Assembly: GCA_030642025.1 (NCBI GenBank) | Contig: DAOWOO010000004.1 | Coordinates: 1 to 14,700 of the forward strand | Length of the DNA stretch: 14,700 bases | From: Candidatus Zixiibacteriota bacterium | GTDB lineage: Bacteria > Zixibacteria > MSB-5A5 > GN15 > PGXB01 | Direction of reading: 5' to 3' | Shown: piece by piece, positions 861 through 14,100 of the stretch | How positions within the stretch are numbered: position 1 is the stretch's first letter | How the letters are laid out: every line of letters starts with the position of its first letter | Notes under the pieces: generated by a model | The model's input: the letters and a program-made list of their open reading frames with translations, nothing else | Databases searched by the model: none | What the model was told of the DNA's origin: nothing | Made by a program: the position numbers and the translations under genes

Positions 861-875
861 ATCTATTAATATCTC

Positions 876-915
876 AGGCCGCCGCAGTTTCTGCGGTGGC
901 CTGGGAGTTTCTTTG
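876..915 (+). terminator. Rho-independent terminator downstream of the SPFH gene
   Basis: GGCCGCCGCAG (877-887), loop TTTC, then CTGCGGTGGCC (892-902) form an 11-bp GC-rich stem with one G.U wobble. This is followed by the U-rich GGGAGTTTCTTTG. It begins 16 nt after the stop at 858-860. Confidence 0.5.
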
Positions 916-1070
916 CAGTTATAACATATTTTTTTTGCAGTACTGAACTTCTTTGCATACTCTATACAACCCATATGACTGGATAAGCGAACTTCTATTA
1001 ATAATATCTGTGAGCCGAGCAAAAGTATAATCTTAATTAATGATTTACGAGAAATGGCTAACAGATAGTC

Positions 1071-1088
1071 TTGTAATGTGTTATAATG
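1071..1088 (+). promoter_or_regulatory. Candidate sigma70-type promoter with extended -10 (TGTTATAAT)
   Basis: TGT TATAAT at 1079-1087 is an extended -10. The TTGTAA at 1071-1076 is too close to serve as a canonical -35. It would give a ~460-nt leader for the giant gene. Prediction is by consensus only. Confidence 0.25.
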
Positions 1089-1339
1089 TGTCTATATGGT
1101 ATATTGGGAGTGCTAAGGCATCATTGTGCCGCCGCCCTAAACTCTTATATATATCCCCGGACATTGGATTTTTGGTGGCAAGGAAATTGCGTTGTTGAAC
1201 AGTGCGAATTAACGATGAATTAGTGATAAGAGGCCAAAGTTTATTGGCCGCCGAGGAAAGCGAAGAATCAAGTAATCGACGGAAAGCCTAATTACCTGCC
1301 TGCTAAGAAGTTGCAGGACGTTTGGACTACAGATATTGC

Positions 1340-1369
1340 TTGACAATTGAGCGATTAGAGATATATTAT
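1340..1369 (+). promoter_or_regulatory. Candidate sigma70-type promoter (TTGACA -N18- TATATT)
   Basis: A perfect -35 TTGACA lies at 1340-1345, with an 18-bp spacer and -10 TATATT at 1364-1369 (TATAAT also at 1367-1372). It sits ~190 bp upstream of the ATG at 1558. Consensus match only. Confidence 0.35.
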
Positions 1370-1548
1370 AATGGTTTACGACAAGATACTACATATTATT
1401 ACCTATGATCCGGCTCTGCCACTTCGGATTTTTGCGAGGCAAGCTGAAATAGAAAGTGAAGTTATATACCGGCATCATTACGGGGATTTAAAGAATCGAC
1501 ATCAGGTAGTTTCTTTTAAATATTGATGCCGTTGGATCTTAAATTTTT

Positions 1549-1553
1549 GGAGG
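1549..1553 (+). promoter_or_regulatory. Shine-Dalgarno for the giant ORF
   Basis: GGAGG-AATA-ATG. The SPFH gene shows the same SD/spacing architecture (AGGAGG-AAGT-ATG). Confidence 0.6.
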
Positions 1554-1557
1554 AATA

Positions 1558-1638
1558 ATGCGTGAGTTTAGGCTGCTTATAACAGTCGTTTGTACTCTCA
1601 CCTTCATCGCATTCGCCATACCCTTACATGCCGAGGCG
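1558..1638 (+). other. Sec signal peptide of the giant protein
   Basis: MREFRLLITVVCTLTFIAFAIPLHA|EA has n-region RxxR, a hydrophobic h-region and an A-x-A-like cleavage site (LHA or AEA). Confidence 0.6.
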
Positions 1639-4600
1639 CTCGGAGATATTAAATCGGGGGCTACATCGGCACAGATACCGACCGATGATCTATCTGCGGA
1701 TCCCGGGGATAATGATGTTGCGGTACCGCCATTAGCATCTCCCTGTGAAAATTGTCCACCGAATACACCGCCGTATTTCGAAAATTGCGGTGATCAGGAT
1801 ACTTTCTATATCTGTCTGGGCGAGACAATCTATGATACAATTGTCGTCCTGGATGATAATCCGGATCAGGAGATAACCATAACCAGGTCCTACGGGCCGG
1901 GCATATTTATATCGACACCATCGATATCTCCAGCCTATGCTTATTATGAATATACTCCCGATATTGAGGGTGTTTTTTCGATTACCTACACGGCCGTTGA
2001 CAGTGAGGGTGCTTCCGACCAACTTGTCCGGGTTTATGTTATCGGTGAGGATGAAGCACCAGTCATTATTACCAATTACCCGGATTTAACCAAATGCTGG
2101 ATCGGAATGCGGATTGATTTCCAGCTTCTGACAGATGAAAACTTCAGTGATCCGATTGACTGGCAGGTTATTGAGGGTGATGCAACTATTACATCATCGG
2201 GACTGCTGTCTTTCTTTGCCTATGATGACGGTGCATATTGCTTCACAATTGAGGCTTCCGGAATTTGCGGCGCCGATACGGCCGAAGTATGCCTGAATAC
2301 TGTCGATAATGATCCTCCAGAGATTATCAGTTCAGACACCACCTACTACCTGTGTGAGCCTGAGGAAATATGCTTTGATATTGAGGCTTATGACCCCGAA
2401 AACGATACTCTTACAATTACACAGATCGCGGGGCCGGGCATCTTTACCCGTCTTGATAATACTCACGGCCGAACCTGCTTCACCCCGGAAAATGTCGATT
2501 CAGCCGATTATACTTTTATATATGAAGTGGCCGACTCATGCCGGGGCGGTGTTTACAAATGCTCCACCTGTCCGCCGGGACCGCGCGACACGGTAGTTAT
2601 CACGGTTGTGATGGGGCAGATGTTCACTCTTGAATGTCCGGGCGACAGCGCGGTGTTCTTGTGTGAGGAAACCACAATCGGCTTTCCGATTGGAGGTGTG
2701 CCTGCCGACGCCCAGTTGACTCTGACTCCTGCCGAGGCCTGGATTAATAATACGAAAGACACTGTTTTTATATTAGCTGACCGGACAATGCATGAGATAA
2801 TCAAACTGGTTGTCGAGAGTGATTGCGGCAAGGACAGCTGTGAATTCACTCTTAATGCCGAAATGAACCAGCCGCCGGTTGTGACTCTGGGCGGGGATAT
2901 AGAACGATTTCTCTGTGAACCCGAAGAAATCTGCATAGATATTCTCGATTTCTTTGATGTGAACGATAATATTATTGACACTATTATTTCGCCTGAAGGC
3001 GCTGTATTTGACAATATCAACGGTAGAATCTGCTTCACTCCTACAGAATCGGGCGAGTATGCGGTTATCCTTAAGGCTGTTGATGAATGCCAGGCGGAAG
3101 CAATTTCATCGGCAACCGTTACCGTTCAATTCAACAGTCCGCCTCAGGTTTTCGCCCCTGATACATCTATTTTCTTATGCGACCTACCGGTGATGCCGAT
3201 TTGTATCAGCGATTCGATCTACGATCCTGACGACAATATCAGTTTTATTGAAGTTACCGGAGAAGGCGATTATTCCAACGGTTATATCTGTTTCACTCCG
3301 CAGGCGGAAGGCACTATTGAGTTTATCACGCATGTGATCGACGAGTGCGGAGTGGAGGTTTTTCATACGACCCAGGTTGAGATAATACTTAACACACCCC
3401 CTTCAATAAACAAACCGGATGATTTCACCATATTTCAGTGTGAGTGGGCCGAGATCTGCTTTACCGTTACTTTTGATGATATTGATGACAACTTCGTGAT
3501 GGCCTCGGTGTCCGCGCCGGCCTCATATAACCCGCAGGACAACCTGGTTTGTTTCACACCTGACGGTCCCGGGGTTTATGAAATTGAAATAACCGCTCTT
3601 GATGAGTGTACATCAGTAGTAGATACGCTTAAAGTAACGGTTGAAACCGGCACCGCTGCGGTAATAGAATGCCCGACCGACCCGATATATGAAAACCTGT
3701 GCGGCGCGGGAAGGATCTGTTATGACCTTCCGATTACGCCGGATCATGCCGTAATTAATATCGAAGGTGGGACAGGGAACGCTATTTATGAAAACGGGCA
3801 GTTATGCTTTGATGTTGAAACCTCAGGTATATATGAATTTACCGTTACTGCCGAAGCTGAATGCGGCGGTGACGAATGCGTGCTTACATTTGACGTCACG
3901 GTCGATGAAGCGCCTTATGTCGAATGTCCTAACGACACCGCTGTAACCCTCTGTGATCTAGGTGTGGTTTGTTTGCCGATAACCATAGAGCCGGAAAACG
4001 CCGTAATCTTGATCGAGCCGTACGGGATTCTGGACAATGGCAATATCTGTTTCTTTGCCGATGAATCGGAAGTGCATGAAATCACTGTCACCGCAACTAC
4101 GGAATGCGGACAGACATCATGTACCTTTACGGTTGATGTGCATATGAACGAGTTACCCATCGTTTCGACCGAAGATGTATCATACTTCGATTGTTTTTCC
4201 GAAACAGAACATGCATTTGCGATTACAGCCACGGATGCCGAAGATGATGACCTTATCTTTGCGCTTCTTTCTCCATACGGCAGTATCAATTCCGAAACAG
4301 GGGAGATAACCTTTATTCCTGACACAGCCGGTGTTTATTGCTTCGACATTGAGGTCTCTGACGACTGTGGAACCGTACCCGGTACAGTATGCGCAACTGT
4401 CGAATTCAATCATGACCCGGTGGTTGTCTCCGCGCCGGATACAACCGTTACCTCCTGTGTGGCCGCCGAGGTATGTTTTGAAGTTGATGTAAGCGACGAG
4501 GATGATAACATTGCGTCCATTAAAATAATCAATTATGAAAATGCCGTCTATAATGAGGGCACGGTCTGTTTCGTGCCAAGCGGGAGCGGCACATATACGA

Positions 4601-7600
4601 TAATTACACGGGCGACCGATGAATGCGGCGCTTATGATGAAGATACCACGGTTGTCACAGTTGAGATCGGGGATGTCTTCACGCTGGAATGCCCCGGCGA
4701 CCAGTTACTGTTTATCTGTGAGCCGGATACGCTCTGTTTTAATATCGGCGGCATCCCGACCGGTGCGGCGGTTGATATTTTCCCACCATCAGCCTGGTTT
4801 GATTATGAGACAAACTCAGTATGTTTCTATACCAACTGTTCGGTCCAAAAGAACCTTAAAGTGGTTGTCGAGGGCGAGTGTATCAAGGATAGCTGTATGT
4901 TCACGGTCGATGTAACCTTAAACTTTGCGCCTCTGGTTATAATGGCTCCGGATACGAGCCTGATTTTGTGTGAACCGGAGGAAATCGCCATTCCGGTAGC
5001 CATTGGCGATCTCAATTATAATATCGATACGGTTATCGTCTCCGAAGGCGCTACCTACAACATGATTACCGGTATGATATATTTTACTCCCACCCAGACC
5101 GATAATTATATGATTATCGTCCGCGTCATTGATGAGTGTCTGGCCTACGACGATGATACCACGCTGGTATCAGTTGTAATCAACGCGCCGCCGGTGGTGA
5201 CCATGCCGGATGAGGCTGATTTCTTCCTGTGCGAGTTGACCGAGGTTTGTTTCGATCAGGTGACAATTTTCGATGATAATGATGCCATAATCGATTATGA
5301 GGTTTCACCATTCGGAACTTATGATCCGCAATCCGGCAGAGTGTGTTTCCTGCCGCCTGATAGTGGGATATACGAAATAGTTTTGACCGTCACCGATCAC
5401 TGCGGCGCCACCGACAGTGATACAACCGTAGTTCATGTCGGGCTTAACAGCGCCCCGGTGGTCATCTCCGCTCCTGACAGCAGTCTGACGATTTGCGAGT
5501 CCGCCGAGATATGCTTCCCGCTTACCTATGACGATATTGACGGGAATATTGAATCGGTATCAATAACCGAAGGTGGCAGTTTCGCCAATGATACAATCTG
5601 TTTTATCGCCGATGAACAGCGCACCTATGAGATTATTACCATGGTGACAGATATCTGCGGCGCTGTCGGGGTTGACACGACGGTAATACATGTAACCCTT
5701 AATTCTCCACCGGTTATTACGTCACAGGACGATTTCGAGGTTTCGTTGTGTGAATTTGAGACGATATGTGTCAGTATCGAAAGCTATTCAGATGTTGACG
5801 GGAATATCAACTCAATTGTGCCGAATGTCGGCACATACAATCCGCAGACTGATTCGGTATGTTTTCTGCCGGATACGGTCGGTGTTTATACCATAATCAC
5901 CACTATAACCGATACCTGTGAAACCTCTGGCGTCGATACCACCCTGGTTACCGTAACTATGGGGCCGGTGGCGGAAATTGACTGTCCTGATCCGACCAGC
6001 TTCTTTCTCTGCCAGCCGGAAATTGTCTGTGTGGATTTACCGATATATCCTGCCGATGCCGTTGTCACTGTTCCTGACGGTGTAACTTATGAAAACGGTC
6101 AGCTTTGTTTCAATGCCACGGAATCCGGAACATTCCCGGTTAATGTGCTGGCTTCGGCCGAATGCGGCGATGATGAGTGCACGGTTATATTCGAGATTGA
6201 AATCGGCGAGTCGGCGCAGTTAACCTGTCCGGACGATACTGCCGTATTCCTTTGTGAACCGATTCAGATTTGCCGCACAATCGGAGTGGCGCCGCCCGAG
6301 GCTGTTGTATCGGTTTCAGATTTTGCCACATATGATAACGGGGAGGTTTGCTTCACTCCGGATACGGCCGGTCATTATCTGATTGACGTTTCGGCGTCGG
6401 CCGAATGCGGCGATGACGTCTGCAATTTTGCCGTCGATGTTGTCTTTAATTCGACGCCAACTGTCAATGCCGGAGAGGACACCTCGTATTTTCAATGTGT
6501 ATTCGAGGAAATCTGCCGCAAGGTTACACTTGCGGATATTGATAATAATATAGACCATGTAACGGTAACCCTTCACAGCACCGGCGAACCGTTTGGAATT
6601 TTCAATCTGGCAGATTCCACAGTTTGTTTCACTCCCCCTGATGTCGGTATTTATTGTCTTGATATTACCGTGTATGACGAGTGCGGCGAGTCCGCAGTCG
6701 ATGATATATGTATCGAAATAACCACCGGCGAGGTTGCCGAGATAGAATGCGCGGCCGAACCGTATGAATACCACCTCTGCACACCGGAAGATATTTGTAT
6801 CCCTCTGATCGTGACGCCGGAAACAGCCGAAGTTTCGGTTTCTTTCGGGAACTATGCCAATAATGAAATATGTTTCACTGCCGATACGGCCGGTGTTTAC
6901 GTAATCGAGGCAATTGCCGAAGAAGCTTGCGGCTCGGACACCTGTGAAGTGGTTGTGAATATTATCTTTGATGATTACGCCGAAATTATCTGTCCGGATT
7001 TGCCCACTTCGGTGACTCTTTGCGAACCGGATTCGGTCTTTGTGCCGCTGGTCATAAATCCGGTTTCTGCCAATGTAAGCGTATCTCCCGAGGGCATGTA
7101 TGATTTCAGCCGCCATGTGCTTGGATTCGAGGCCGACACCGGCGGTGTATATATGCTTACCGTCATTGCCGAGGCCCCCTGCGGTGCGGATACCTGTCTG
7201 ATTGAGATTGATGTATCAATTATCGGCATACCTGAAATTACCTGTCCGGATGATATTGATACCATGGTTTGCATACCCGAAACCAGCGAGATATGTGTGC
7301 CCGTAATTATTGAGGGAGCCGATTTTACGGTGGAAGTACTGCCCACTGGTATCTTCAGTGGCAATGAAGTCTGTGTCCCGATTAACGGGCCTGATACTTA
7401 TACTATTACGGTTACCGCATCATCAATATGCGGGAGTAATGAATGCACTTTCGATCTGGTGGTTCGTGAAAATCTCGCTCCGGAACTGGTCGTACCTGCC
7501 GATACGGTGCGGATACCCTGGTGCGAAGACGACGAAGGTACTATCTGTATAGACGGTATTTTCGCCACCGATCCCGAGGGCGATCCGATAACATTGTCTC

Positions 7601-9261
7601 TTTGCAGTAGTGAGGGGCTGTTTGAGTTGACCGGGGATGACAGTGGCCAGGTTTGCTTCACACCGCAGGCTTACGACACGACATATACATTCTGCATGTC
7701 AGCGGCTGACTGGTGCCAGGAGGTCATGGATACTTTTCATGTAAACCTCTATCCATCGGCAGTCTGCTCGGTATGTGTCGTGGTTTCCATCGAGACCGAT
7801 ACCTGTTATAATGTCGGACAGCGGATTCCGGTGAATATAAAAGTCCAGACTAATGACCCTATCGCCGGTTTTGACCTGCTTATTAAATACGACGAATCGG
7901 TCACAGACCTCTATGCCGTGACTCAGGGTGATGCTATCGACGAATGGGAATCATTTAGTTTCCGGAGAGGTGCGTCAGCCGGCTGTCCCAGTTGTCCGGA
8001 TGGAGTTGTCCATATTGTCGGCATCGCCGATATTAATAATTCTACCCATCCACCAGAGGAACAGTTGACACCCAATGGTATCCTGGCCCGACTGACCATG
8101 CAAATTGCCAATAACCAGAGCCTGGGCGGAATGTATATACCAATGAGTTTCCTCTGGCTTGACTGCACAGATAACAGTCCCTCGGATTTAACCGGTATGA
8201 AGCAGTATGTTGATTTAAGGATATACAATTCATATGGCTATCTCAAATGGGAAGAATTTGATGAGGTTCATTACCCCGAATCAAGCCGACCGGCATATCT
8301 GGGCACTCCTGATAGCTGTATGGTGGGCGACAAGGTTACCCCGGTACGCTGTGTTGAATTCTACGATGGCAGTATCTGCGTGATTCATCCCGATGATATC
8401 GACGCCCGAGGTGATGTAAATCTCAACGGTATTGCTTATGAAATCGCCGATGCCGTGGTGTTGACCAACTTCTTCATTTACGGTTTCGATGCCTTTACGG
8501 TAAACATTGCCGGACAGACGGCGGCGTCGGATGTCAATGCCGACGGCATGGCGCTGACGATTGCCGATCTGGTTTATCTTATACGCGTTATCACCGGTGA
8601 CGCCGACCCGCTGCCGAAACTGACTCCATACGAAAGCCCGGTCGCTCTTGGAACGATTATTGATGGCGACAAGTTATCGCTTTCATTAAGAACGCAGTAT
8701 GATGTTGGAGCCGGACTGCTGATCTTCGAGCATGACGGCATTAACCCGGAAATGCTGCGATTGGATGATGCTCCGCCGGGAATGGAGATGATATATTCGG
8801 TAACTGAGCGAGAAATTCGCATCCTGTTCTACAGTATGGAAAAAGGCGTCAAGCTGGACGCCGGCGAGTTCAACCTGCTTAATATGACTTATTCAGGAGA
8901 TGGCTCGATACGGCTGATTGAAGCTGAACTGGCCGGATACTACGGACGTGTCCTTAAAACCGATATTAACGATGCCATGGTACCGACCGAGTTCACAGTG
9001 GCGCAGAATTATCCCAACCCGTTTAATCCGTCAACCACGATTGAGATGGCCCTGCCGCAGGCCGGGCAATGGAGCCTGAATATATACAATGTCACCGGTC
9101 AGCTGGTACGGCGCTTCAACGGTGAGAACAGGGCGGGTAGGGTAGCCATTTACTGGGATGGCTGTAATGAAGCTGGTGGCCAGGTGGCTTCCGGCATATA
9201 TCTTTATAAAGCTGAGTTCGATGAGCATGTCATCAGTAAGAAAATGATAATGCTGAAATAA
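1558..9261 (+). CDS. Giant (2567 aa) secreted multi-repeat cell-surface protein with tandem HYR-like/cadherin-like modules, cohesin, dockerin and a T9SS type-A C-terminal sorting domain
   Basis: A single uninterrupted 7704-nt ORF with SD and ATG at 1558 and stop TAA at 9259-9261. The N-terminus is signal-peptide-like. The body is periodic (~258 nt) with recurring motifs ECPxD, FLCEPEEICF, D-x-D-D-N-I, xCFTP, DECG and CGDDEC. The C-terminus carries cohesin-like, dockerin-like and T9SS sorting-domain signatures. Composition is highly acidic (D/E/T/V/I rich, few K/R) and Cys-rich. Confidence 0.9.
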   Translation: MREFRLLITVVCTLTFIAFAIPLHAEALGDIKSGATSAQIPTDDLSADPGDNDVAVPPLASPCENCPPNTPPYFENCGDQDTFYICLGETIYDTIVVLDDNPDQEITITRSYGPGIFISTPSISPAYAYYEYTPDIEGVFSITYTAVDSEGASDQLVRVYVIGEDEAPVIITNYPDLTKCWIGMRIDFQLLTDENFSDPIDWQVIEGDATITSSGLLSFFAYDDGAYCFTIEASGICGADTAEVCLNTVDNDPPEIISSDTTYYLCEPEEICFDIEAYDPENDTLTITQIAGPGIFTRLDNTHGRTCFTPENVDSADYTFIYEVADSCRGGVYKCSTCPPGPRDTVVITVVMGQMFTLECPGDSAVFLCEETTIGFPIGGVPADAQLTLTPAEAWINNTKDTVFILADRTMHEIIKLVVESDCGKDSCEFTLNAEMNQPPVVTLGGDIERFLCEPEEICIDILDFFDVNDNIIDTIISPEGAVFDNINGRICFTPTESGEYAVILKAVDECQAEAISSATVTVQFNSPPQVFAPDTSIFLCDLPVMPICISDSIYDPDDNISFIEVTGEGDYSNGYICFTPQAEGTIEFITHVIDECGVEVFHTTQVEIILNTPPSINKPDDFTIFQCEWAEICFTVTFDDIDDNFVMASVSAPASYNPQDNLVCFTPDGPGVYEIEITALDECTSVVDTLKVTVETGTAAVIECPTDPIYENLCGAGRICYDLPITPDHAVINIEGGTGNAIYENGQLCFDVETSGIYEFTVTAEAECGGDECVLTFDVTVDEAPYVECPNDTAVTLCDLGVVCLPITIEPENAVILIEPYGILDNGNICFFADESEVHEITVTATTECGQTSCTFTVDVHMNELPIVSTEDVSYFDCFSETEHAFAITATDAEDDDLIFALLSPYGSINSETGEITFIPDTAGVYCFDIEVSDDCGTVPGTVCATVEFNHDPVVVSAPDTTVTSCVAAEVCFEVDVSDEDDNIASIKIINYENAVYNEGTVCFVPSGSGTYTIITRATDECGAYDEDTTVVTVEIGDVFTLECPGDQLLFICEPDTLCFNIGGIPTGAAVDIFPPSAWFDYETNSVCFYTNCSVQKNLKVVVEGECIKDSCMFTVDVTLNFAPLVIMAPDTSLILCEPEEIAIPVAIGDLNYNIDTVIVSEGATYNMITGMIYFTPTQTDNYMIIVRVIDECLAYDDDTTLVSVVINAPPVVTMPDEADFFLCELTEVCFDQVTIFDDNDAIIDYEVSPFGTYDPQSGRVCFLPPDSGIYEIVLTVTDHCGATDSDTTVVHVGLNSAPVVISAPDSSLTICESAEICFPLTYDDIDGNIESVSITEGGSFANDTICFIADEQRTYEIITMVTDICGAVGVDTTVIHVTLNSPPVITSQDDFEVSLCEFETICVSIESYSDVDGNINSIVPNVGTYNPQTDSVCFLPDTVGVYTIITTITDTCETSGVDTTLVTVTMGPVAEIDCPDPTSFFLCQPEIVCVDLPIYPADAVVTVPDGVTYENGQLCFNATESGTFPVNVLASAECGDDECTVIFEIEIGESAQLTCPDDTAVFLCEPIQICRTIGVAPPEAVVSVSDFATYDNGEVCFTPDTAGHYLIDVSASAECGDDVCNFAVDVVFNSTPTVNAGEDTSYFQCVFEEICRKVTLADIDNNIDHVTVTLHSTGEPFGIFNLADSTVCFTPPDVGIYCLDITVYDECGESAVDDICIEITTGEVAEIECAAEPYEYHLCTPEDICIPLIVTPETAEVSVSFGNYANNEICFTADTAGVYVIEAIAEEACGSDTCEVVVNIIFDDYAEIICPDLPTSVTLCEPDSVFVPLVINPVSANVSVSPEGMYDFSRHVLGFEADTGGVYMLTVIAEAPCGADTCLIEIDVSIIGIPEITCPDDIDTMVCIPETSEICVPVIIEGADFTVEVLPTGIFSGNEVCVPINGPDTYTITVTASSICGSNECTFDLVVRENLAPELVVPADTVRIPWCEDDEGTICIDGIFATDPEGDPITLSLCSSEGLFELTGDDSGQVCFTPQAYDTTYTFCMSAADWCQEVMDTFHVNLYPSAVCSVCVVVSIETDTCYNVGQRIPVNIKVQTNDPIAGFDLLIKYDESVTDLYAVTQGDAIDEWESFSFRRGASAGCPSCPDGVVHIVGIADINNSTHPPEEQLTPNGILARLTMQIANNQSLGGMYIPMSFLWLDCTDNSPSDLTGMKQYVDLRIYNSYGYLKWEEFDEVHYPESSRPAYLGTPDSCMVGDKVTPVRCVEFYDGSICVIHPDDIDARGDVNLNGIAYEIADAVVLTNFFIYGFDAFTVNIAGQTAASDVNADGMALTIADLVYLIRVITGDADPLPKLTPYESPVALGTIIDGDKLSLSLRTQYDVGAGLLIFEHDGINPEMLRLDDAPPGMEMIYSVTEREIRILFYSMEKGVKLDAGEFNLLNMTYSGDGSIRLIEAELAGYYGRVLKTDINDAMVPTEFTVAQNYPNPFNPSTTIEMALPQAGQWSLNIYNVTGQLVRRFNGENRAGRVAIYWDGCNEAGGQVASGIYLYKAEFDEHVISKKMIMLK
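1790..7745 (+). repeat. Array of ~23 tandem in-frame ~86-aa (about 258-nt) protein-domain repeats (HYR-like / cadherin-like Ig-fold modules)
   Basis: Recurrent (C/Y)F(T/L/V)P motifs fall at nt ~2236, 2476, 2758, 3031, 3288, 3549, 3805, 4046, 4305, 4566, 4821, 5080, 5344, 5598, 5859, 6105, 6349, 6624, 6871, 7123, 7370 and 7653, spaced 240-283 nt apart. Module boundaries are marked by V-x-V-x-x-N-(S/A)-P-P-V-(V/I) (cadherin-like linker) or E-C-P-x-D (HYR-like start). Short exact nucleotide repeats exist between modules, for example TCGGCCGAATGCGGCGATGA at 6154-6173 and 6397-6416. Confidence 0.75.
7765..8165 (+). other. Cohesin-like domain
   Basis: VVVSIETDTCYNVGQRIPVNIKVQTNDPIAGFDLLIKYDESVTDLYAVTQGDAI...GVVHIVGIADINN...TPNGILARLTMQIANNQSLGGMYIPMSF matches the cohesin pattern (G-x-V-x-VPV ... 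F-x-L-x-YD-x-x-(L)-x-x ... G-x-I-x-F ... DG-x-LA-x-I-x-F ... F). This is judged from sequence pattern, not a database hit. Confidence 0.55.
8400..8600 (+). other. Dockerin domain (two Ca2+-binding repeat segments)
   Basis: DVNLNGIAYEIADAVVLTNFFIYG (from nt 8412) and DVNADGMALTIADLVYLIRVITG (from nt 8530) are two copies of the dockerin EF-hand-like loop D-V-N-x-(D/N)-G-x-x-x-x-x-D plus an amphipathic helix, separated by ~16 residues. Confidence 0.7.
8992..9258 (+). other. T9SS (Por secretion system) type-A C-terminal sorting domain
   Basis: FTVAQNYPNPFNPSTTIEMALPQAGQWSLNIYNVTGQLVRRFNGENRAGRVAIYWDGCNEAGGQVASGIYLYKAEFDEHVISKKMIMLK fits the TIGR04183-type consensus (QNYPNPFNP-x-T-x-I ... IY-x-x-x-G-x-x-V ... 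AG-x-x-x-x-WDG-x-x-x-x-G-x-x-VASG-(I/V)-Y-x-Y-(K/R) ... KKM-x-LLK) at the extreme C-terminus. Confidence 0.8.
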
Positions 9262-9284
9262 ATTAATCCCCGCTTTATTCCTTC

Positions 9285-9328
9285 AAAAGGTCGGCCGGAC
9301 TCACATTCGGCCGGCTTTTTATTTGTGG
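9285..9328. terminator. Bidirectional rho-independent terminator at the convergent gene junction
   Basis: AAAAGG-UCGGCCG (9285-9297) pairs with CGGCCGGC-UUUUU (9308-9320) around a ~10-nt loop, giving a 6-bp palindromic CGGCCG core extended by G-C/G.U pairs. It is followed by TTTTTATTT on the + strand and preceded by an A-tract (a U-tract for the - strand transcript). The rlmH stop codon (TAA, 9319-9321) lies inside the distal arm. Confidence 0.55.
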
Positions 9329-9789
9329 TATTTTTCGCCGGAAATAATAGAAAAGGCGCGGTACAACTGCTCCAGCAGAACCGGGCGGATAAGCTGGTGC
9401 GACATTGTCATAGGGGAGAGGGAGAGGATGTCCCGGCTTTTTTTCAGGATGCTTTTGTCAATTCCATAGGCGCCGCCGATTATGAATTCACAACTGCCAT
9501 GACCTGCATTCATCAGGCCCGAGATGTACTTTGCAAATTGCATAGAGTCAACTCGAGTGCCTCTGTCTGACAATGAAATTGCGGGGCCGGAACCGAGATG
9601 TTTTTCAATTAACGGCGCCTCCCGTCGGAGCACCTCCGGGGCGTCGATACTTTTTGTTTTTTTTATTTTCCGGGTATAAATGATCGATACCGAGGCATGT
9701 TTTTTAATTAGCTTCAGATAGTGAGCGATGCCGTCATTAACCCATGCCTCTTTATTTTTGCCGACTGCTATAATTCTGATTTTAAACAT
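9319..9789 (-). CDS. rlmH: 23S rRNA (pseudouridine1915-N3)-methyltransferase RlmH (SPOUT family)
   Basis: The ORF track entry 9319..9792 begins with TTG. The ATG at 9789-9787 gives MFKIRIIAVGK... The C-terminal IIGGAYGIDKSILKKSRDILSLSPMTMSHQLIRPVLLEQLYRAFSIISGEKYHK matches the RlmH/YbeA core (IGGxxGL...SLSxxTxxHxLxRxxLxEQLYRAxSI...PYH). Confidence 0.9.
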   Translation of the reverse strand: MFKIRIIAVGKNKEAWVNDGIAHYLKLIKKHASVSIIYTRKIKKTKSIDAPEVLRREAPLIEKHLGSGPAISLSDRGTRVDSMQFAKYISGLMNAGHGSCEFIIGGAYGIDKSILKKSRDILSLSPMTMSHQLIRPVLLEQLYRAFSIISGEKYHK

Positions 9790-10187
9790 CAACCACTGAC
9801 AGATTTTATGTATAATCGACGGCTGCGCGGACCGTCATACTCGCAGAAATATATTGCCTGCCAGGTACCCAGAACCAGTCGGCCGCCGGATACTATTACC
9901 TGGAGTGACGGGCCGGTCAGTGATGATTTGATATGCGCGTCGGAGTTGCCCTCGGCGTGTTGGTAGCCGTCCCGCTGAGGGAATTCACGGCGCAGTTTAT
10001 CGAGAATGTCCCGCTTTACCGTAGGATCGGCGTTCTCGTTAATTGTTACCGCCGCCGTGGTGTGAGGGACAAACAGCGTTATCACCCCTTCGTCAAGACC
10101 GTGCTTCTGCACGAAATCGGCGATAACCGACGTTATATCGAGCAGTTCTTCACGATGATGCGTTTTGACTGAAACTTCCTCAAGCAT
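9789..10187 (-). CDS. yjbQ: YjbQ/UPF0047 family protein (secondary thiamine-phosphate synthase-like)
   Basis: The track ORF 9789..10325 is over-extended. The ATG at 10187-10185 (MLEEVSVKTHHREELLDIT...) is preceded by GGAGG with a 9-nt spacer and lies 2 nt after the ftsY stop. Conserved HTTAAVTINENADPTVKRD ... GNSDAHIKSSLTGPSL ... LGTWQAIYFCEYDGPRSRRL is the YjbQ signature. Its stop TGA (9791-9789) overlaps the rlmH ATG (TGATG). Confidence 0.85.
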   Translation of the reverse strand: MLEEVSVKTHHREELLDITSVIADFVQKHGLDEGVITLFVPHTTAAVTINENADPTVKRDILDKLRREFPQRDGYQHAEGNSDAHIKSSLTGPSLQVIVSGGRLVLGTWQAIYFCEYDGPRSRRLYIKSVSG

Positions 10188-11097
10188 TGAATAATGCCTC
10201 CGCATAACTATCGGCATCGAACAGTTGTAAATCCTCGATAGCCTCGCCGATCCCGATGAATTCAACTGGCACCGACAACTCCTCGGATATGGCCACGATA
10301 ACCCCACCCTTGGCGGTACCGTCAAGCTTGGTAACTACCAGGCCGTCGCACCCAACCGCCTCCATGAAGATTTTCACCTGAGAGAGGGCGTTCTGGCCGG
10401 TGTTGCCATCAATTACCAGATGCGCCTGAATCTGTTTGGCAGGTACCACTTTCTCGGCAACACGGCGGATTTTTTTAAGCTCTTCCATAAGGTTAGCTTT
10501 GGTGTGAAGCCGACCGGCGGTATCAATAAGAAGAATATCAACACCCCGGGATTTGGCTGCGGATACGGCATCAAAGGCGATTGCGGCTGGGTCGGCCCCA
10601 GTCTGGGCGCGGATAATATCCACGCCTGACCGCTCCGCCCAGATTTCAAGCTGCTCCACGGCGGCCGCCCGGAAAGTATCGCAGGCGGCAATCATGACTT
10701 TACGGCCGGTTTTCTTGAAATAATGAGCCAGTTTGCCAACCGTGGTGGTTTTGCCGCTTCCGTTGACTCCGGTGATCAGCCACACCATAGGCCGAGAGGC
10801 CGGATCAAAGACAATATCCCGTTTGTTCTTCTGCAGGATACCGGAAATGTCTGTTTTAAGAAGAGAAACCACATCCTCGTTTTCCGCCGTTTTCTCGCGT
10901 GCGGCTGTTTCACGAAGATTCTCCACGATCTTTTCGGTGGCGGATACCCCTATATCCGATTTTAACAGTAGTTCTTCAAGTTCATCCAGCAGGTCGTCAT
11001 CGATTTTCCTGCCGGTAAAGACCTGCGAGATCTTTCCAAATATGGAATCGCGGGTCTTGGTCAGCGATTCTTTCAGTTTTCTGAGTTTGGATATCAT
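10180..11097 (-). CDS. ftsY: Signal recognition particle receptor FtsY (short NG-only form)
   Basis: 305 aa. The N domain is followed by the G domain with GVNGSGKTTTVGKLA (G1), DTFRAAA, DTAGR (G3), TKLDGTAKGG (G4) and GIGE (G5). Confidence 0.95.
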   Translation of the reverse strand: MISKLRKLKESLTKTRDSIFGKISQVFTGRKIDDDLLDELEELLLKSDIGVSATEKIVENLRETAAREKTAENEDVVSLLKTDISGILQKNKRDIVFDPASRPMVWLITGVNGSGKTTTVGKLAHYFKKTGRKVMIAACDTFRAAAVEQLEIWAERSGVDIIRAQTGADPAAIAFDAVSAAKSRGVDILLIDTAGRLHTKANLMEELKKIRRVAEKVVPAKQIQAHLVIDGNTGQNALSQVKIFMEAVGCDGLVVTKLDGTAKGGVIVAISEELSVPVEFIGIGEAIEDLQLFDADSYAEALFNA

Positions 11098-11111
11098 AAA
11101 GATGCGGTTTC

Positions 11112-14100
11112 TCAGTCGGATTTCTGCTTGATATTTTGTTCTATGTTGATTTTAGGGGTAATACGTTCCTTTACAGCCTCAGGTATTTCGATATCGGAAA
11201 CGTCGGGAGCATAATCGGTTTTAACAAGCGATGTATCTATTACGCCTTCATCAGTATCTTCCTGGAAGCGAACGGAGACTAACTTGGAAATACCCGGCTG
11301 TTCCATGGTGATGCCGTACATATTATCCGCTGCCTCCATGGTGATCTTATTATGAGTGATAATAATAAACTGGGTTTGGTCCGAGAAGGTTTTGATAATT
11401 TTCAGAAAACGGTGGATATTTGCATCATCAAGAGGGGCGTCGATCTCATCGAGGACGCAAAATGGCGACGGCTTGACCAGGTAGATCGCGAACAGAAGCG
11501 ATATGGCCGTGAGGGCGCGTTCGCCCCCGGACATCTGGGTGATGGACAAAAGTTTCTTACCCCGCGGCCGCGCGGTTATTTCGATGGGGGATTCTAGCGG
11601 ATCCTCATCACTTACCAGATGGATGTTGCAATCTCCGCCGGCAAACAGTTCGGCAAAAACTTTCTGGAAGTTTTCTCGCACTTTTTCAAAAGTCTCCAGA
11701 AATAGATTACGGGCGGTAGTGTTGATTTTGGTGATAGTTGACTGGAGAGTCGACTTGGCCTGCATAAGGTCGTTAATTTGCGCGGAAAGGAATTCCTGGC
11801 GTTCTTTGGCAGTATCGTACTCATCGAGCGCCAGAAGGTTAACCGCGCCGAAAGTTTTAATTTGCTCCCTGATTTCCCGCATTCTCGCCCTTCGCTGATC
11901 GGGCGGAATGCTCATATCGGGAATCTTTGCCTGTACTTCATTAAGATCAATCTCATACTCATCGCGGATTTTGGTTGTAATGGATCGGGTGTCGGAATCG
12001 ATCTCAGCCAGCCGCAATTCAGTCTCGTGAAGCTTGGCACCGGTTTCCTCTCGCTCCTGACGCAGGACCTTAATTCTTCTTTCACGCTCATTAAGGCTGT
12101 CCTGGAGACTGGCCTGGGATTGTCGGTGACCGGTCTGTTCATCGGACATCTGTGCCCTGGCGTCAAAAATGCTCTTTAAATCTTTTTCGAGTGCGAGTGT
12201 TTTTTCATCGGTAACCCTGATGTCCTCTTCGGCGGTCATGATTTCAATCGATTTCGTCTTGATTCCGGAGTCGATTTCATAAATCAGTTCCCGGACATGT
12301 TTCAACTGGCTTTCACGCTGTTCTTTTTGACTTCGCTGTTCAACCATCCTGATCTGTAGCTGCGAGGCGCGCTCCGCCGCAGTTTCGGACTCCTGCTCAA
12401 GGTCGGAAATGCGAGCGTCGGATGAGGCTGCCGTTTTCAGCAATTTTTCTTTCTCCCGCGCCAGTTGATCGTAGTTAAGATTAAGGTCATACTGTCGGCT
12501 TTTCAGCGCTTCCAATTTCCCGGAAAGGATGCGCCGCTCGTTTTCGATCCGTCCGATATCCCGGCATATCTCCTCCAGTTTGAACTCGTTGGAGTCGAAT
12601 TCTTTTTGCGTTAACGACTGTTCCTGGGTAAGAGAACTCAGCAAGGTCGTTGTTTCAAGCAATTCCGACTGTAACGCGCCCAAGCGAGCAGTTGTATGAT
12701 TCTTTGATTCCTTGAGCCTGTTCAATTCTGTAGCCATGCGTTCAATAGCGCGCTCTTCCTCGGCAACCTTTTCCTTTCGTCCGAATAGTGGTATCTCATC
12801 TCTGGAACCACCGGTAATTATGGCTATATTATGATAAGCTGTGCCACTGGTGCTGACGGCGGCAAAGAAGGGCGGCAATTGTTCGAGAATGGCTTCGGCC
12901 GCATCAGGCTTTATTACCGCTGTCCTTGACAGAAGCATTTTCGCCAGTATCGATAAGTCATCGGGAATTTCGACCATATTATCCGCCCACCCGATAAAGC
13001 CTTCATGCTGAATATCCGGGCGGATAGTCTCGGTTTCGCGCGCCGATTCCAGAATCATGAATCCGGCTTTGCCTTTGCTTTCCGATTCAAGAAAGGCGAT
13101 CGCCTGGTCGGCGGTGTTTCGGTCTCGACAGATTACAAACCCGGCCATCTCGCCCAGGGCGGCTTCAATGGCCTGCTCATACCCCGGCTTCGGCTTGAAA
13201 CTGTCAGCCACAGTGCTGATCAAACCCGGCCAGCGATCCTTAAATTCCAGAAGGGGAGCTACGCCGGAACTGTAACCTTCATACTGGGTTATCATTTCAT
13301 TTAGCAGATGATGACGAGCCTCGGCCGCCTCCAGCGACGCCGAGATATCGAATATTTTACCCGAAAATTCGTCGATCTGATTATCCAGAGCATCGGCCTC
13401 ATTCGTCAATGATGTTTTTCTGTCGGTGGATTCCTTTAATTTCCGTTCTATGTCGGACAGGTTCTCCTTCAGCGAGCCAAGGATTGCCGTCAGGCCTTTT
13501 TTCCTTTCTCCGGCGGCTGAAAGTTGTTCATCCATTTCAGTGATTTTTATATTGGTTTCGCTTTCCTGCTCTTTCAGATTGGTGTCGTCTGTTTTTTCCG
13601 CGGAAAGGCATCTCTCCAGTGAGAGAAACTTTTGATTCAAATCAACGCGAATACGGCGCGCCTCAAGAACACGCTCATCAGCGGTGGCAAGGGCCGTTTC
13701 ACGGACCGAGACTTCGCTGTTCATGGACTCCAACCCTTGCTCAAGCTTATCAAGCTCAGTTTTGATCTCATCAACCTGATCGGTCAGCAGTTCTCTGCGT
13801 TTGCGGTAAGCTTCAATATCAACCAGGTTTTTTTCTTTCAGGCGGTGTCCATTGTCCCGGCGTTCCCGGCCGACATTGATTTCCGTTTCGATATTATGCG
13901 CCTGTTCGGACTTTTCATAGATATGTTTAGAAATGTCCGTCAGGTTGCGGTCCAGATCGGTCAACCGCTTGCGTTCCTCTTCCTGGTCGGCGGAAAATGA
14001 ATCGATTTCGGTATCATGTTGAGCGCGGATATCAACCATAGAATCCTTCTTGGATATTAGCTCGCGCCGTTCCTCCATAAGCTCATCCATAGCCAACTTG

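What the first reader, a model, noticed from the sequence alone, without database searches (positions are those of the whole stretch)
1558..9261. Giant 2567-aa acidic, Cys-rich secreted protein combining ~23 tandem Ig-like modules with cohesin, dockerin and a T9SS sorting domain
This 7.7-kb gene is by far the largest element in the window. Its architecture is signal peptide, a short Pro/Cys-rich linker (CENCPPNTPPYFENCGDQD), ~23 HYR-like/cadherin-like modules, cohesin, dockerin, an unassigned module and a T9SS CTD. That combination points to a surface-displayed adhesin or scaffold exported by the type IX secretion system. The protein is extremely acidic (many D/E, very few K/R) with 4-6 Cys per module, which suggests a Ca2+-binding, disulfide-stabilised stalk. 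Its flanks are housekeeping genes (SPFH lipoprotein; smc-ftsY-yjbQ-rlmH), so it sits in core chromosome context rather than on an obvious mobile element. The module family is not recognisable as a textbook domain and may be an undescribed variant of HYR/cadherin-like folds.
Basis: partly seen in the sequence, partly recalled or inferred. Interest (0 to 1): 0.75.

Follow-up and report, generated by a model that had tools for sequence, protein, structure and literature searches.

The report
Giant Zixibacteria surface protein, cohesin-dockerin base
This 7.7-kb gene encodes a giant, very acidic surface protein of a Zixibacteria bacterium: a long stalk of 23 disulfide-braced Ig-like beads on a conserved cohesin/dockerin-like/beta-sandwich base and a type IX secretion tag. 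The same base is shared by well over a thousand other proteins (proteases, scaffold-like proteins), which points to an undescribed cellulosome-like surface assembly system in this uncultured phylum.

Summary

The modules are Ig-like (AlphaFold pLDDT 97) and match no single curated family; HYR is not matched. Cysteine presence/absence across 3274 modules implies 2-3 disulfides per module.

The gene is the positional orthologue of a Zixibacteria-wide family. Members carry 15-42 modules and nearly all lie beside rlmH-yjbQ-ftsY-smc. They are annotated only as "T9SS type A sorting domain-containing protein".

The main new point is that cohesin, dockerin-like segment and X form one conserved unit. 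It occurs in 1634 protein clusters. Some have other passengers (S8 and C25 peptidases, VWA, BNR). Others are tandem multi-unit or multi-cohesin scaffold-like proteins, 28 of them with unequal cohesin and dockerin counts.

Best reading: a T9SS-anchored stalk that plugs into a cohesin-dockerin surface network. The architecture is shown; the binding, Ca2+ dependence and T9SS machinery are inferred. It is a new variant of known kinds, of moderately high interest.

The parts
1176..1190 (+). sigma-54-type -24/-12 element TGGCAAGGAAATTGC, about 380 nt upstream of the start codon
   Evidence: Read in the sequence. Aligned and conserved in L001 and L003. GGCA-N6-TTGC lies at -214 to -402 in 12 of 42 loci with a complete giant gene, about 16 times the background density. 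A consensus match only; function is not shown.
1340..1369 (+). sigma-70-type promoter TTGACA-N16/18-TATATT/TATTAT, implying a ~190-nt 5' leader with a conserved TACTAC motif at 1387-1392
   Evidence: 11 of 12 consensus match. The same element lies at -163 to -294 in 25 of 42 loci. TACT[AG]C lies 16-29 nt after the -10 box in 16 of 21 loci, against 2.5% background. No Rfam family matches.
1549..1553 (+). Shine-Dalgarno GGAGG
   Evidence: TGGAGGAA-N-ATG is invariant in L001, L003 and the window.
1558..1638 (+). Sec signal peptide, aa 1-27 (MREFR / hydrophobic core / AEA, then cleavage before L28)
   Evidence: Read by eye from the translation. No signal-peptide predictor was available, so this is an inference.
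1639..1761 (+). N-terminal acidic/Pro-rich tip segment, aa 28-68, leading into the Cys-rich start of module 1 (CENCPPNTPPYFENCGDQD)
   Evidence: Not covered by the module profile.
1762..7746 (+). 23 tandem Cys-stapled Ig-like modules (aa 69-2063), with no linkers. There are two types: A with 4 Cys (NxxPxV start and D-x-D-x-N loop) and B with 6 Cys (ECP start and CGxDxC). Order: AAABAAABBAABAAAABBABBBA
   Evidence: jackhmmer finds 23 domains; alignment. AlphaFold of modules 16-18 gives pLDDT 97.4, all beta. Foldseek matches titin, Robo and protocadherin tandem Ig/cadherin arrays. Cys covariation is and the type order.
7762..8388 (+). Cohesin module, aa 2069-2277. It is enlarged to ~210 aa, with Cys-containing insertions
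8389..8619 (+). Dockerin-like module, aa 2278-2354. It contains two duplicated loop-helix segments (RGDVNLNGIAYEIADAVVL and ASDVNADGMALTIADLVYL)
   Evidence: Internal duplication, with invariant D/N at loop positions 1, 3, 5 and 13 in both halves across 26 orthologues. Pfam Dockerin_1 hits 13 of 26 orthologues (best E 3.9e-4) but not this protein. Helices follow each loop in the model, but pLDDT is <50. No solved dockerin is found by profile search.
8620..8982 (+). X module, aa 2355-2475: a beta-sandwich of no assigned family, possibly a degenerate second cohesin
   Evidence: AlphaFold pLDDT ~85-90, all beta. There is no Pfam hit in this protein; 1 of 10 orthologues hits Cohesin at E 0.0011. 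The best Foldseek hit of the cassette is a cohesin dyad, 3l8q, aligned over 482 columns. hhalign of X against the cohesin gives no signal.
8983..9261 (+). T9SS type A C-terminal sorting domain (aa 2476-2567) and stop codon
12..860 (+). Flank: SPFH/Band 7 gene, followed by a terminator-like hairpin at 872-906
   Evidence: Pfam PF01145, 98.6 bits. Terminator scan. An SPFH gene lies upstream of the giant gene in several related loci.
9319..14700 (-). Flank: convergent rlmH (9319..9792), yjbQ (9789..10325), ftsY (10180..11097) and smc (11112..>14700, which runs off the window)
   Evidence: Pfam. The same four genes follow the giant gene in most related loci. The smc reading frame continues to the window end.

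Best explanation
**What it is (shown).** The gene encodes the positional orthologue, in an undescribed Zixibacteria lineage, of a phylum-wide family of giant T9SS cargo proteins. Its layout is: Sec signal peptide; a variable array of Ig-like modules (23 here, 15-42 in the family); then an invariant ~500-aa C-terminal block of cohesin, dockerin-like segment, X beta-sandwich and type A T9SS CTD.

**How it most likely works (inferred).**
1. Sec exports it to the periplasm, where each module is stapled by 2 (type A) or 3 (type B) disulfides.
2. The T9SS recognises the CTD, moves the protein across the outer membrane, removes the CTD and links the new C-terminus to a surface lipopolysaccharide, as for type A cargo in Bacteroidota.
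3. That places the cohesin/dockerin-like/X unit next to the membrane. The 23 modules project as a rigid, very acidic rod of roughly 90-100 nm that ends in the N-terminal tip.
4. The cohesin and dockerin-like modules bind in trans to the same unit on other proteins. This wires the stalk into a Ca2+-dependent, cellulosome-like surface network. That network would include triad-bearing proteases and other passengers, plus scaffold-like proteins made of tandem triads or several cohesins.
5. The stalk itself most plausibly acts as a spacer or adhesin that reaches particles or other cells.

**Confidence.** About 0.9 for the identity and architecture and about 0.45-0.5 for trans assembly; the single figure of 0.55 is for the whole statement.
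For: **Architecture.**

**Family and synteny.**
- 189 giant homologues were found, and the named ones are Zixibacteria.
- All 118 homologues that match align over the full 512-aa C-terminal block.
- Most of the 63 fetched loci that carry a giant (>=8-module) homologue have rlmH/yjbQ/ftsY/smc beside it.
- The A/B module order is identical to that of 50%-identical orthologues.

**Disulfides.** In 3274 modules, C2/C3 are present or absent together (phi 0.91) and so are C0/C5 (phi 0.91). C1 and C4 are each ~95% present.

**The triad is a reusable unit.**
- Cohesin, dockerin-like segment and X occur together in nearly every complete cassette-bearing ORF of the 83 loci; the few exceptions are ORFs cut by a contig end.
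- 1634 clusters at 50% identity carry it, 666 of them at E<=1e-30.
- Of 132 new top representatives, 50 have modules plus one triad, 31 have another passenger of >=300 aa, and 42 have several cohesins or dockerins.
- Passengers include Peptidase_S8, Peptidase_C25, VWA, a C39-like domain and BNR.

**Binding in trans.** 28 proteins have unequal cohesin and dockerin numbers. Examples are cohesin x4 with one dockerin, five cohesins with three dockerins, and (dockerin-X) x3 with no cohesin. Unpaired modules need partners on other chains. Several triad proteins occur per genome, with three loci on chromosome OY969724.1.

**Precedent.** A cohesin scaffoldin with a T9SS CTD, plus dockerin-bearing peptidases, has been described in Cloacimonadota (PMC8542988).
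Against: - No binding was tested.
- The dockerin-like segment fails Pfam in this protein, finds no solved dockerin by profile search, and is modelled at pLDDT <50, undocked.
- In almost all proteins the cohesin and dockerin are directly adjacent (about 8 residues apart) and in a fixed order. That also fits an intramolecular clasp.
- T9SS core genes could not be examined. Zixibacteria are not among the phyla listed as possibly having a T9SS in a 2024 paper's introduction (PMC11285876).
- CTD cleavage and lipid attachment are extrapolated from Bacteroidota.
- Ca2+ binding, rod length and the adhesive role are inferred only.
Confidence: 0.55

Rival explanations
1. **Intramolecular clasp.** In each triad the dockerin-like segment folds back on the neighbouring cohesin of the same chain. 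The triad is then one rigid pedestal domain in front of the T9SS CTD, with no role in joining proteins. The giant protein would be a stand-alone fibrillar adhesin or spacer.
For: - Cohesin and dockerin are adjacent, in a fixed order and with almost no linker, in the great majority of family members.
- The triad duplicates as a block, for example (coh-doc-X) x3.
- Both dockerin helices are very strongly conserved across orthologues, with 18 invariant positions out of 83. That fits one fixed partner.
Against: - 28 of 132 representatives have unequal numbers, including four tandem cohesins with one dockerin and (doc-X) x3 with no cohesin.
- AlphaFold did not dock the dockerin on the cohesin, although that region is low-confidence.
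Confidence: 0.25
2. **Adhesion by the stalk itself.** The function lies in the Ig-like array. It would be a cadherin-like, Ca2+-rigidified adhesin for cell-cell contact, mineral or particle attachment, or biofilm matrix, comparable to giant repeat adhesins such as SiiE, SraP and the RTX adhesins. The C-terminal block would serve only for export and anchoring.
For: - A profile of the 23 modules weakly hits Ig-like repeats of an RTX protein (36gk), SraP (4m03) and chain 2yn3, deposited as a "putative inner membrane protein" and recalled from memory to be SiiE (E 0.005-0.013).
- Foldseek matches protocadherin and cadherin ectodomains with TMq 0.57-0.62.
- There are Big_9 and Cadherin_5 hits.
- The family is strongly acidic: D+E 13.8% against K+R 2.9% on average.
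- Module number varies from 15 to 42, while the two ends of the array keep the same type order in the members compared.
Against: - No ligand-binding domain is recognisable at the tip.
- It does not explain why the same cohesin/dockerin-like/X block sits on proteases and on multi-cohesin proteins.
- It is compatible with the best explanation rather than exclusive of it.
Confidence: 0.15
3. **Metal or redox chemistry.** The many cysteines are free thiols used for metal binding or extracellular redox reactions, not structural disulfides.
For: - Cys makes up 4.75% of the protein, with short C-x5-C and C-x4-C spacings.
- Zixibacteria commonly live in anoxic sediments and groundwater (from general knowledge, not tested here).
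Against: - Cysteines are gained and lost strictly in pairs that are far apart in sequence: C2/C3, 2595 both, 589 neither, only 90 single; C0/C5, 1109 both, 2027 neither, 138 single. That is the signature of disulfide partners.
- The short-spaced cysteines are not the covarying partners.
- The modules are confidently predicted as ordinary Ig sandwiches.
Confidence: 0.04
4. **Artefact.** The giant ORF is an assembly chimera or a collapsed repeat.
For: None found. Repeat-rich genes are a known assembly hazard.
Against: - There are no tandem DNA repeats. The longest direct repeats are 20-38 nt at 61-90% identity.
- Modules are only 9-30% identical to module 1.
- The protein aligns end to end with independent assemblies, with the same 23-module order.
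- GC content is even across the gene and its flanks.
Confidence: 0.01

Closest known systems
Cellulosome scaffoldins of Clostridia, for example the CipA C-terminus (type I cohesin 9 / X module / type II dockerin; PDB 3kcp, 4fl4)
   Same: - A non-catalytic giant protein that carries both a cohesin and a dockerin plus an X-type beta-sandwich at its C-terminal end.
- At system level the same parts are present: enzymes carrying the interaction module and proteins with several cohesins.
   Different: - The order here is cohesin, dockerin, X, not cohesin, X, dockerin.
- Almost every component, enzymes included, carries both a cohesin and a dockerin fused together.
- The dockerin loops have ligand spacing 1-3-5-13 and fail the Pfam model.
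- Anchoring is by a T9SS CTD on a diderm outer membrane, not by SLH domains or sortase.
- No CBM or glycoside hydrolase was seen among the members examined; the passengers seen are peptidases, VWA and BNR.
- The CipA domain order is quoted from memory.
Cellulosome-like system proposed for Cloacimonadota 'Ca. Stygibacter' (PMC8542988)
   Same: - An FCB-group uncultured phylum.
- A 3755-aa non-catalytic scaffoldin-like protein with cohesins and a T9SS CTD.
- Dockerins on S8 and C25 peptidases.
   Different: - There, cohesins sit in tandem on the scaffoldin and dockerins sit on the enzymes, as separate modules, together with CBM2/CBM3.
- Here one cohesin and one dockerin-like module are fused in a fixed triad on each protein, and the giant protein's bulk is a Cys-stapled Ig array.
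- Neither system has been tested experimentally.
Non-cellulosomal cohesin/dockerin proteins (Peer et al. 2009), for example the Archaeoglobus fulgidus cohesin 2xdh
   Same: - Cohesin and dockerin-like modules outside cellulolytic Clostridia, sometimes in the same polypeptide.
   Different: - Those are scattered single cases.
- Here the fused unit is a large family of 1634 clusters, tied to one secretion system and, as far as the named members show, to one phylum.
- The Peer et al. paper could not be read, so its content is quoted from memory and from its citation in PMC8542988.
Giant repeat adhesins of diderm bacteria (SiiE, RTX/LapA-type adhesins, SraP cadherin-like modules) and large T9SS surface proteins such as SprB
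   Same: - A long array of Ig-like/cadherin-like modules with acidic composition.
- Weak profile hits to an RTX protein, SraP and 2yn3 repeats.
- Surface display. SprB is also a multi-thousand-residue T9SS cargo (from memory).
   Different: - Those adhesins lack the paired cysteines and the cohesin/dockerin block.
- SiiE and the RTX adhesins use type I secretion.
- SprB has a type B CTD and acts in gliding motility; this protein has a type A CTD (TIGR04183).

Membership tests
Cohesin (PF00963) | Match to the family HMM above the curated cut-off | tested here: met
   27.6 bits against a cut-off of 24.1, aa 2075-2186, profile positions 2-104 of 139. 26.7 bits on the isolated segment.
Cohesin (PF00963) | Nine-stranded jelly-roll fold of solved cohesins | tested here: met
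Cohesin (PF00963) | Binds a dockerin | not testable with these tools
   Needs a binding assay or a multimer prediction.
Dockerin type I (PF00404) | Match to the family HMM | tested here: not met
   This protein has no hit at E<=10. 13 of 26 orthologous segments hit weakly (best E 3.9e-4). A profile of 26 orthologues finds no solved dockerin.
Dockerin type I (PF00404) | Two duplicated ~22-residue segments, each a Ca2+-binding loop (ligands at 1, 3, 5, 12) followed by a helix | tested here: inconclusive
   The duplication is clear. D/N at loop positions 1, 3 and 5 and an Asp at position 13 (not 12) are invariant or nearly so in both halves. Helices follow both loops in the model, but pLDDT is <50 for aa ~2280-2334.
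T9SS type A cargo (TIGR04183 / PF18962) | CTD HMM above the cut-off, located at the extreme C-terminus | tested here: met
   TIGR04183 35.3 bits against 23. PF18962 27.8 and 32.4 bits against 27, aa 2485-2564 of 2567.
T9SS type A cargo (TIGR04183 / PF18962) | Ig-like beta-sandwich CTD fold | tested here: met
T9SS type A cargo (TIGR04183 / PF18962) | N-terminal Sec signal peptide | tested here: inconclusive
   A typical n/h/c layout with AEA before L28 can be read from the translation. No predictor was available.
T9SS type A cargo (TIGR04183 / PF18962) | T9SS core genes (porU, porV, sprA/sov, porK-N) in the same genome | not testable with these tools
   Only 14.7 kb of the genome is available, and no core-gene query sequence could be obtained. 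None was noticed among ORFs of >=900 aa in 1.2 Mb of related loci. The only indirect support is the abundance of type A CTD proteins in Zixibacteria.
HYR domain (PF02494) | Match to the family HMM | tested here: not met
   No hit for the whole protein at E<=1, or for any of the 23 modules at E<=0.01.
Bacterial Ig / cadherin-like domains (Big_9 PF17963, Cadherin_5 PF17892) | Match to the family HMMs | tested here: inconclusive
   On the whole protein, Big_9 scores 49.2 bits against 23.6 (3 stretches) and Cadherin_5 27.5 against 26.5. Taken one by one, only 3 of 23 modules (Big_9) and 1 of 23 (Cadherin_5) reach E<=0.01; Ig_SIBA-E_2nd, K319L PKD and PKD_4 take others. The modules belong to the same broad Ig-like class but to no single curated family.
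Classical cadherin repeats | Inter-domain Ca2+ sites (DxNDN, DxD and LDRE-type motifs) and Ca2+ dependence | not testable with these tools
   Type A modules have a conserved N-x-x-P start and a D-x-D-x-N loop.
Zixibacteria giant Coh-Doc-X-CTD family (unnamed; defined here) | Array of Cys-stapled modules plus the collinear ~510-aa C-terminal block, located next to rlmH-yjbQ-ftsY-smc | tested here: met
   The C-terminal block aligns end to end with 118 homologues, at 37-59% identity. The 23-module order is identical to that of P0005 and P0006.

The most novel reading that the evidence does not exclude
The fused cohesin/dockerin-like/X triad is a self-assembling connector. With it, Zixibacteria would build a T9SS-anchored protein network on their outer membrane, a Gram-negative and largely proteolytic counterpart of the cellulosome or of an S-layer.

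In this network every component would carry both the plug and the socket. The components would be 100-nm Cys-stapled stalks, S8 and C25 peptidases, VWA and BNR proteins, and multi-triad scaffolds. Chains and lattices could then form by head-to-tail or domain-swapped binding. The giant protein, conserved at one core-genome locus across the phylum, would be the main structural fibre of that coat.
Probability: 0.3. Interest if true: 0.8.

Novelty: new variant of a known kind. Interest (0 to 1): 0.6.

Why it matters
**Biology of an uncultured phylum.** Zixibacteria are widespread in sediments and aquifers, and nothing is known about their cell surface. This locus shows a conserved core-genome gene for a ~100-nm surface fibre. 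More importantly, it exposes a family of more than 1600 protein clusters that share one cohesin/dockerin-like/X unit in front of a T9SS sorting domain.

**If the unit mediates protein-protein assembly**
- It extends the cellulosome principle to a diderm phylum, to T9SS anchoring and to mainly proteolytic cargo.
- It offers a new architecture in which plug and socket are fused on every subunit.
- It supplies compact, orthogonal cohesin-dockerin pairs and disulfide-stapled Ig rods for protein engineering.

**Practical points.** The result gives a concrete marker for annotating these genes, which are now named only "T9SS type A sorting domain-containing protein" or "hypothetical protein". It also makes the question of T9SS function outside Bacteroidota directly testable.

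Tried and rejected
- **Exact look-up of the protein.** Not on record, so the source genome could not be retrieved.
- **Rfam on the window.** No RNA family, including in the 697-nt upstream region.
- **Pfam and PDB searches for the dockerin.** Nothing for this protein, and no solved dockerin even with a 26-sequence profile. The label is therefore downgraded to "dockerin-like".
- **Identity of the X module.** All three tests were inconclusive:
  - hhalign against the cohesin and against the CTD gave no signal.
  - Pfam on ten orthologues gave one sub-threshold cohesin hit.
- **Partner in the neighbouring gene.** The 1075-1092-aa T9SS protein next to the gene in relatives shares only the CTD, has no cohesin or dockerin, and is absent from this window.
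- **P0175 (Peptidase_C25 plus triad) as the T9SS sortase PorU.** Rejected: 83.8 bits against a cut-off of 420, and the best-matching stretch covers only the CTD end.
- **Looking for SprA-like giant ORFs in 1.2 Mb of fetched Zixibacteria loci.** Only smc and unrelated ORFs were found.
- **AFDB fold library.** Not available.
- **First alignment for structure prediction.** Too large and had to be rebuilt.
- **Literature.** No paper combines Zixibacteria with T9SS, with "type IX secretion" or with dockerin. Peer et al. 2009 is not held.
- **Cysteines as metal ligands, and assembly artefact.** Both considered and rejected.

Full report
**1.

The window contains one very large ORF, 1558..9261 on the + strand, encoding 2567 aa. 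GGAGG lies 4 nt before the ATG. The product has 432 Asp+Glu against 69 Lys+Arg, a pI of 4.05 and 122 Cys.

The N-terminus reads as a Sec signal peptide: MREFR, a hydrophobic core, then AEA before L28. This was read by eye because no predictor was available.

A self-search finds exactly 23 contiguous modules of about 85 aa, from aa 69 to 2063, with no linkers.

SPFH lies upstream. rlmH, yjbQ, ftsY and smc lie downstream and convergent, and smc runs off the window end.

The gene is not an assembly artefact:
- There are no tandem DNA repeats, and only short, diverged direct repeats.
- Modules are only 9-30% identical to module 1.
- GC content is even across the gene and its flanks.
- The protein aligns end to end with independently assembled 2514-aa homologues.

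**2. The domains**

| Part | Result |
|---|---|
| Cohesin | Pfam 27.6 bits against a cut-off of 24.1 |
| T9SS CTD | TIGR04183 35.3 bits against 23; PF18962 27.8-32.4 bits against 27; at the extreme C-terminus |
| C-terminal 512 aa, AlphaFold (30-sequence alignment) | cohesin pLDDT ~90; X beta-sandwich ~85-90; CTD ~85; first half of the dockerin-like segment <50 |
| CTD fold | matches the mirolase CTD, PorU and PorZ |

- Pfam does not see it in this protein, even at E<=10.
- Half of the orthologues reach only E 3.9e-4 or worse.
- A profile of 26 orthologues finds no solved dockerin.

Even so, the segment is an obvious internal duplication of loop plus helix. Asp/Asn at loop positions 1, 3 and 5 and an Asp at position 13 are invariant or nearly so in both halves. 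This is one residue longer than the canonical 1-3-5-12 dockerin loop. I therefore call it dockerin-like.

The X module stays unassigned. The only hints that it is a degenerate second cohesin are one sub-threshold Pfam hit among ten orthologues and a Foldseek top hit to a cohesin dyad.

**3. The modules**

AlphaFold of modules 16-18 gives pLDDT 97.4, all beta. Foldseek returns generic tandem Ig/cadherin arrays such as titin I67-I69, Robo1 and protocadherins, with TM (query) up to 0.62.

Pfam recognises few of the modules. Big_9, Ig_SIBA-E_2nd, K319L-PKD, Cadherin_5 and PKD_4 together cover at most 8 of 23 modules at E<=0.01, and HYR covers none. A module profile gives only weak hits to repeats of an RTX protein, SraP and chain 2yn3, which is deposited as a "putative inner membrane protein" and which I recall to be SiiE.

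There are two module types:
- Type A has four Cys.
- Type B has six Cys, adding an N-terminal ECP and a C-terminal CGxDxC.

Across 3274 modules from 121 family members, Cys presence and absence covary strongly:

| Pair | Both present | Neither | One only | phi |
|---|---|---|---|---|
| C2/C3 | 2595 | 589 | 90 | 0.91 |
| C0/C5 | 1109 | 2027 | 138 | 0.91 |

C1 and C4 are each about 95% present. This implies disulfides C2-C3, C0-C5 and, by elimination, C1-C4. It argues against free-thiol chemistry.

**4. Relatives and context**

The protein search found 189 giant proteins of 1800-4200 aa. Those with names are Zixibacteria MAG proteins, labelled only "T9SS type A sorting domain-containing protein" or "hypothetical". 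The best identity is 50-51%, and the exact protein is not on record.

All 118 homologues that match align over the full 512-aa C-terminal block. Module number ranges from 15 to 42 and tracks protein length (r = 0.94). The order of A and B types in this protein is identical to that in the 50%-identical orthologues P0005 and P0006. In the members compared, longer relatives keep the same type order at the two ends and differ inside the array.

In the three first loci, and in most of the 63 related loci that carry a giant (>=8-module) homologue, the giant gene is followed by rlmH-yjbQ-ftsY-smc. FtsY is about 75% and SMC about 59% identical to the nearest relatives. The window therefore comes from a distinct lineage of the phylum. 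The gene is a vertically inherited core-locus gene, not a mobile one.

**5.

A genome scan with the dockerin-like alignment confirmed 390 loci. In nearly every complete cassette-bearing ORF of the 83 loci held, cohesin, dockerin-like segment, X and CTD occur together and in that order; the few exceptions are ORFs cut by a contig end.

Many of those proteins have no Cys-stapled modules at all. Several occur per genome: chromosome OY969724.1 has three loci, and tandem gene pairs of about 870 and 665 aa recur.

An exhaustive HMMER search with aa 2069-2475 found 1634 clusters at 50% identity (E<=1e-3), 666 of them at E<=1e-30. The 132 new top representatives divide as follows:

| Architecture | Number |
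|---|---|
| Modules plus one triad | 50 |
| Another N-terminal passenger of >=300 aa plus triad | 31 |
| Several cohesins and/or dockerins | 42 |
| Triad only, or a fragment | 9 |

- Passengers include Peptidase_S8, Peptidase_C25, VWA with He_PIG, LTD with a C39-like peptidase, and a BNR propeller.
- The multi-unit proteins include (coh-doc-X) x3, cohesin x4 with one dockerin, five cohesins with three dockerins plus a CTD, and (doc-X) x3.
- 28 proteins have unequal cohesin and dockerin counts.
- All named members are Zixibacteria or "FCB group".

**6. Mechanism**

Shown: the architecture, the cohesin and CTD folds, the disulfide pattern, the orthology and synteny, and the modular reuse of the triad.

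Inferred:
1. Sec export, then disulfide formation in the periplasm.
2. T9SS transport, with CTD removal and lipid anchoring, by analogy with Bacteroidota type A cargo.
3. A rod of about 90-100 nm, taking roughly 4 nm per Ig-like module.
4. Ca2+-dependent binding in trans between cohesin and dockerin-like modules. This would link the stalk, the proteases and the scaffold-like proteins into a cellulosome-like surface network.

Two observations argue for trans binding. Unpaired cohesins and dockerins exist, and the same unit sits on enzymes, exactly as dockerins do in cellulosomes.

The main rival is an intramolecular clasp that makes the triad a rigid pedestal. It is favoured by the fixed adjacency of cohesin and dockerin. 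I put trans assembly at about 0.45-0.5, the clasp at 0.25, and a purely stalk-based adhesin role at 0.15. The last is compatible with the first.

**7. Comparison with what is known**

The closest described systems are:
- Clostridial scaffoldins. The CipA C-terminus has cohesin, X and dockerin, in a different order.
- The cellulosome-like system proposed for Cloacimonadota 'Ca. Stygibacter'. It has a 3755-aa cohesin scaffoldin with a T9SS CTD, and dockerins on S8 and C25 peptidases (PMC8542988).
- Scattered non-cellulosomal cohesin/dockerin proteins.
- Giant Ig-repeat adhesins.

This case differs in four ways: the fused cohesin/dockerin-like/X unit on every component, the atypical dockerin loops, the Cys-stapled module family, and the phylum.

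No paper in the searchable library mentions Zixibacteria together with T9SS, "type IX secretion" or dockerin. The introduction of a 2024 paper lists other FCB phyla, but not Zixibacteria, as possible T9SS holders (PMC11285876).

**8. Verdict**

The finding is real and its architecture is largely as described. The HYR label should be dropped, and the dockerin should be called dockerin-like.

The protein is one member of a large family that exists in databases but is unnamed and undescribed. As a kind, it is a new variant of known kinds: T9SS cargo combined with cohesin-dockerin assembly.

I score interest at 0.6. The giant gene alone would be an ordinary large adhesin. The conserved triad and its more than 1600 relatives make it a good entry point to an unstudied surface system.

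The main gaps are the lack of any binding test, the low-confidence dockerin model, and the untested presence of T9SS machinery.

Noticed in passing
window 861-1557 (elements at 872-906, 1176-1190, 1340-1369, 1387-1392): The 697-nt non-coding region upstream of the giant gene holds several elements. There is a terminator-like hairpin after SPFH. There is a sigma-54-type TGGCA-N6-TTGC element, present in 12 of 42 related loci (about 16 times background). There is a near-consensus sigma-70 promoter, present in 25 of 42 loci, which implies a ~190-240-nt leader. There is also a leader motif TACT[AG]C, 16-29 nt after the -10 box, in 16 of 21 loci against 2.5% background. No Rfam family matches.
   Followed up: partly
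L001:6035-9262 (-), L003:5950-9228 (-); absent from window 861-1557: In the nearest relatives a divergently transcribed 1075-1092-aa T9SS protein (fn3 hits, and a CTD very similar to that of the giant protein) sits directly upstream of the giant gene (after SPFH in L001 and L002). This window lacks it and has only non-coding DNA there.
   Followed up: partly
P0121, P0123, P0124, P0126, P0174, P0189, P0208 (proteins found): Zixibacteria encode scaffold-like proteins made of tandem cohesin/dockerin-like/X units or several cohesins. Examples are (coh-doc-X) x3, cohesin x4 with one dockerin, and (doc-X) x3. Most are annotated as hypothetical.
   Followed up: partly
P0173, P0175, P0184, P0191; L081:6737-10789: The same triad plus CTD is attached to Peptidase_S8, Peptidase_C25, VWA with He_PIG, LTD with a C39-like peptidase, and a BNR propeller. 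This suggests a mainly proteolytic set of displayed enzymes. The C25 protein is not PorU by the NCBIfam cut-off.
   Followed up: partly
L054, L066, L073, L074 (about 8150-13300 in each locus): There is a recurrent tandem pair of triad-bearing genes of about 870 and 665 aa. The larger type (also seen as single genes in L059, L064 and L071) appears, by eye, to start with an extra unpaired cohesin-like domain followed by Cys-containing Ig-like modules. The smaller has Big_9/cadherin-like domains.
   Followed up: partly
window 9789-10325 (-) and 10180-11097 (-): The yjbQ ORF as listed (178 aa, TTG start) overlaps ftsY by 146 nt. The UPF0047 match starts at residue 62, and relatives have 132-142-aa proteins. 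The real start is probably internal, near the end of ftsY.
   Followed up: no
window 11112-14700 (-): The smc reading frame continues to the window edge, and the Walker A motif GPNGCGKTN lies in the last codons. The listed 1165-aa ORF, which starts at an internal Met, is therefore N-terminally truncated by the window.
   Followed up: yes
loci L007, L010, L012, L013, L015, L022, L025-L027, L029-L031, L033, L038, L039 and others; L068, L081: Many MAG records that carry this Zixibacteria-type locus, with the same synteny, are titled "uncultured Ignavibacteriales/Ignavibacteriaceae". Two contigs are titled "Candidatus Deferrimicrobium sp.". These are probably coarse or wrong taxonomic labels, or binning contamination, rather than real spread of the family.
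   Followed up: no
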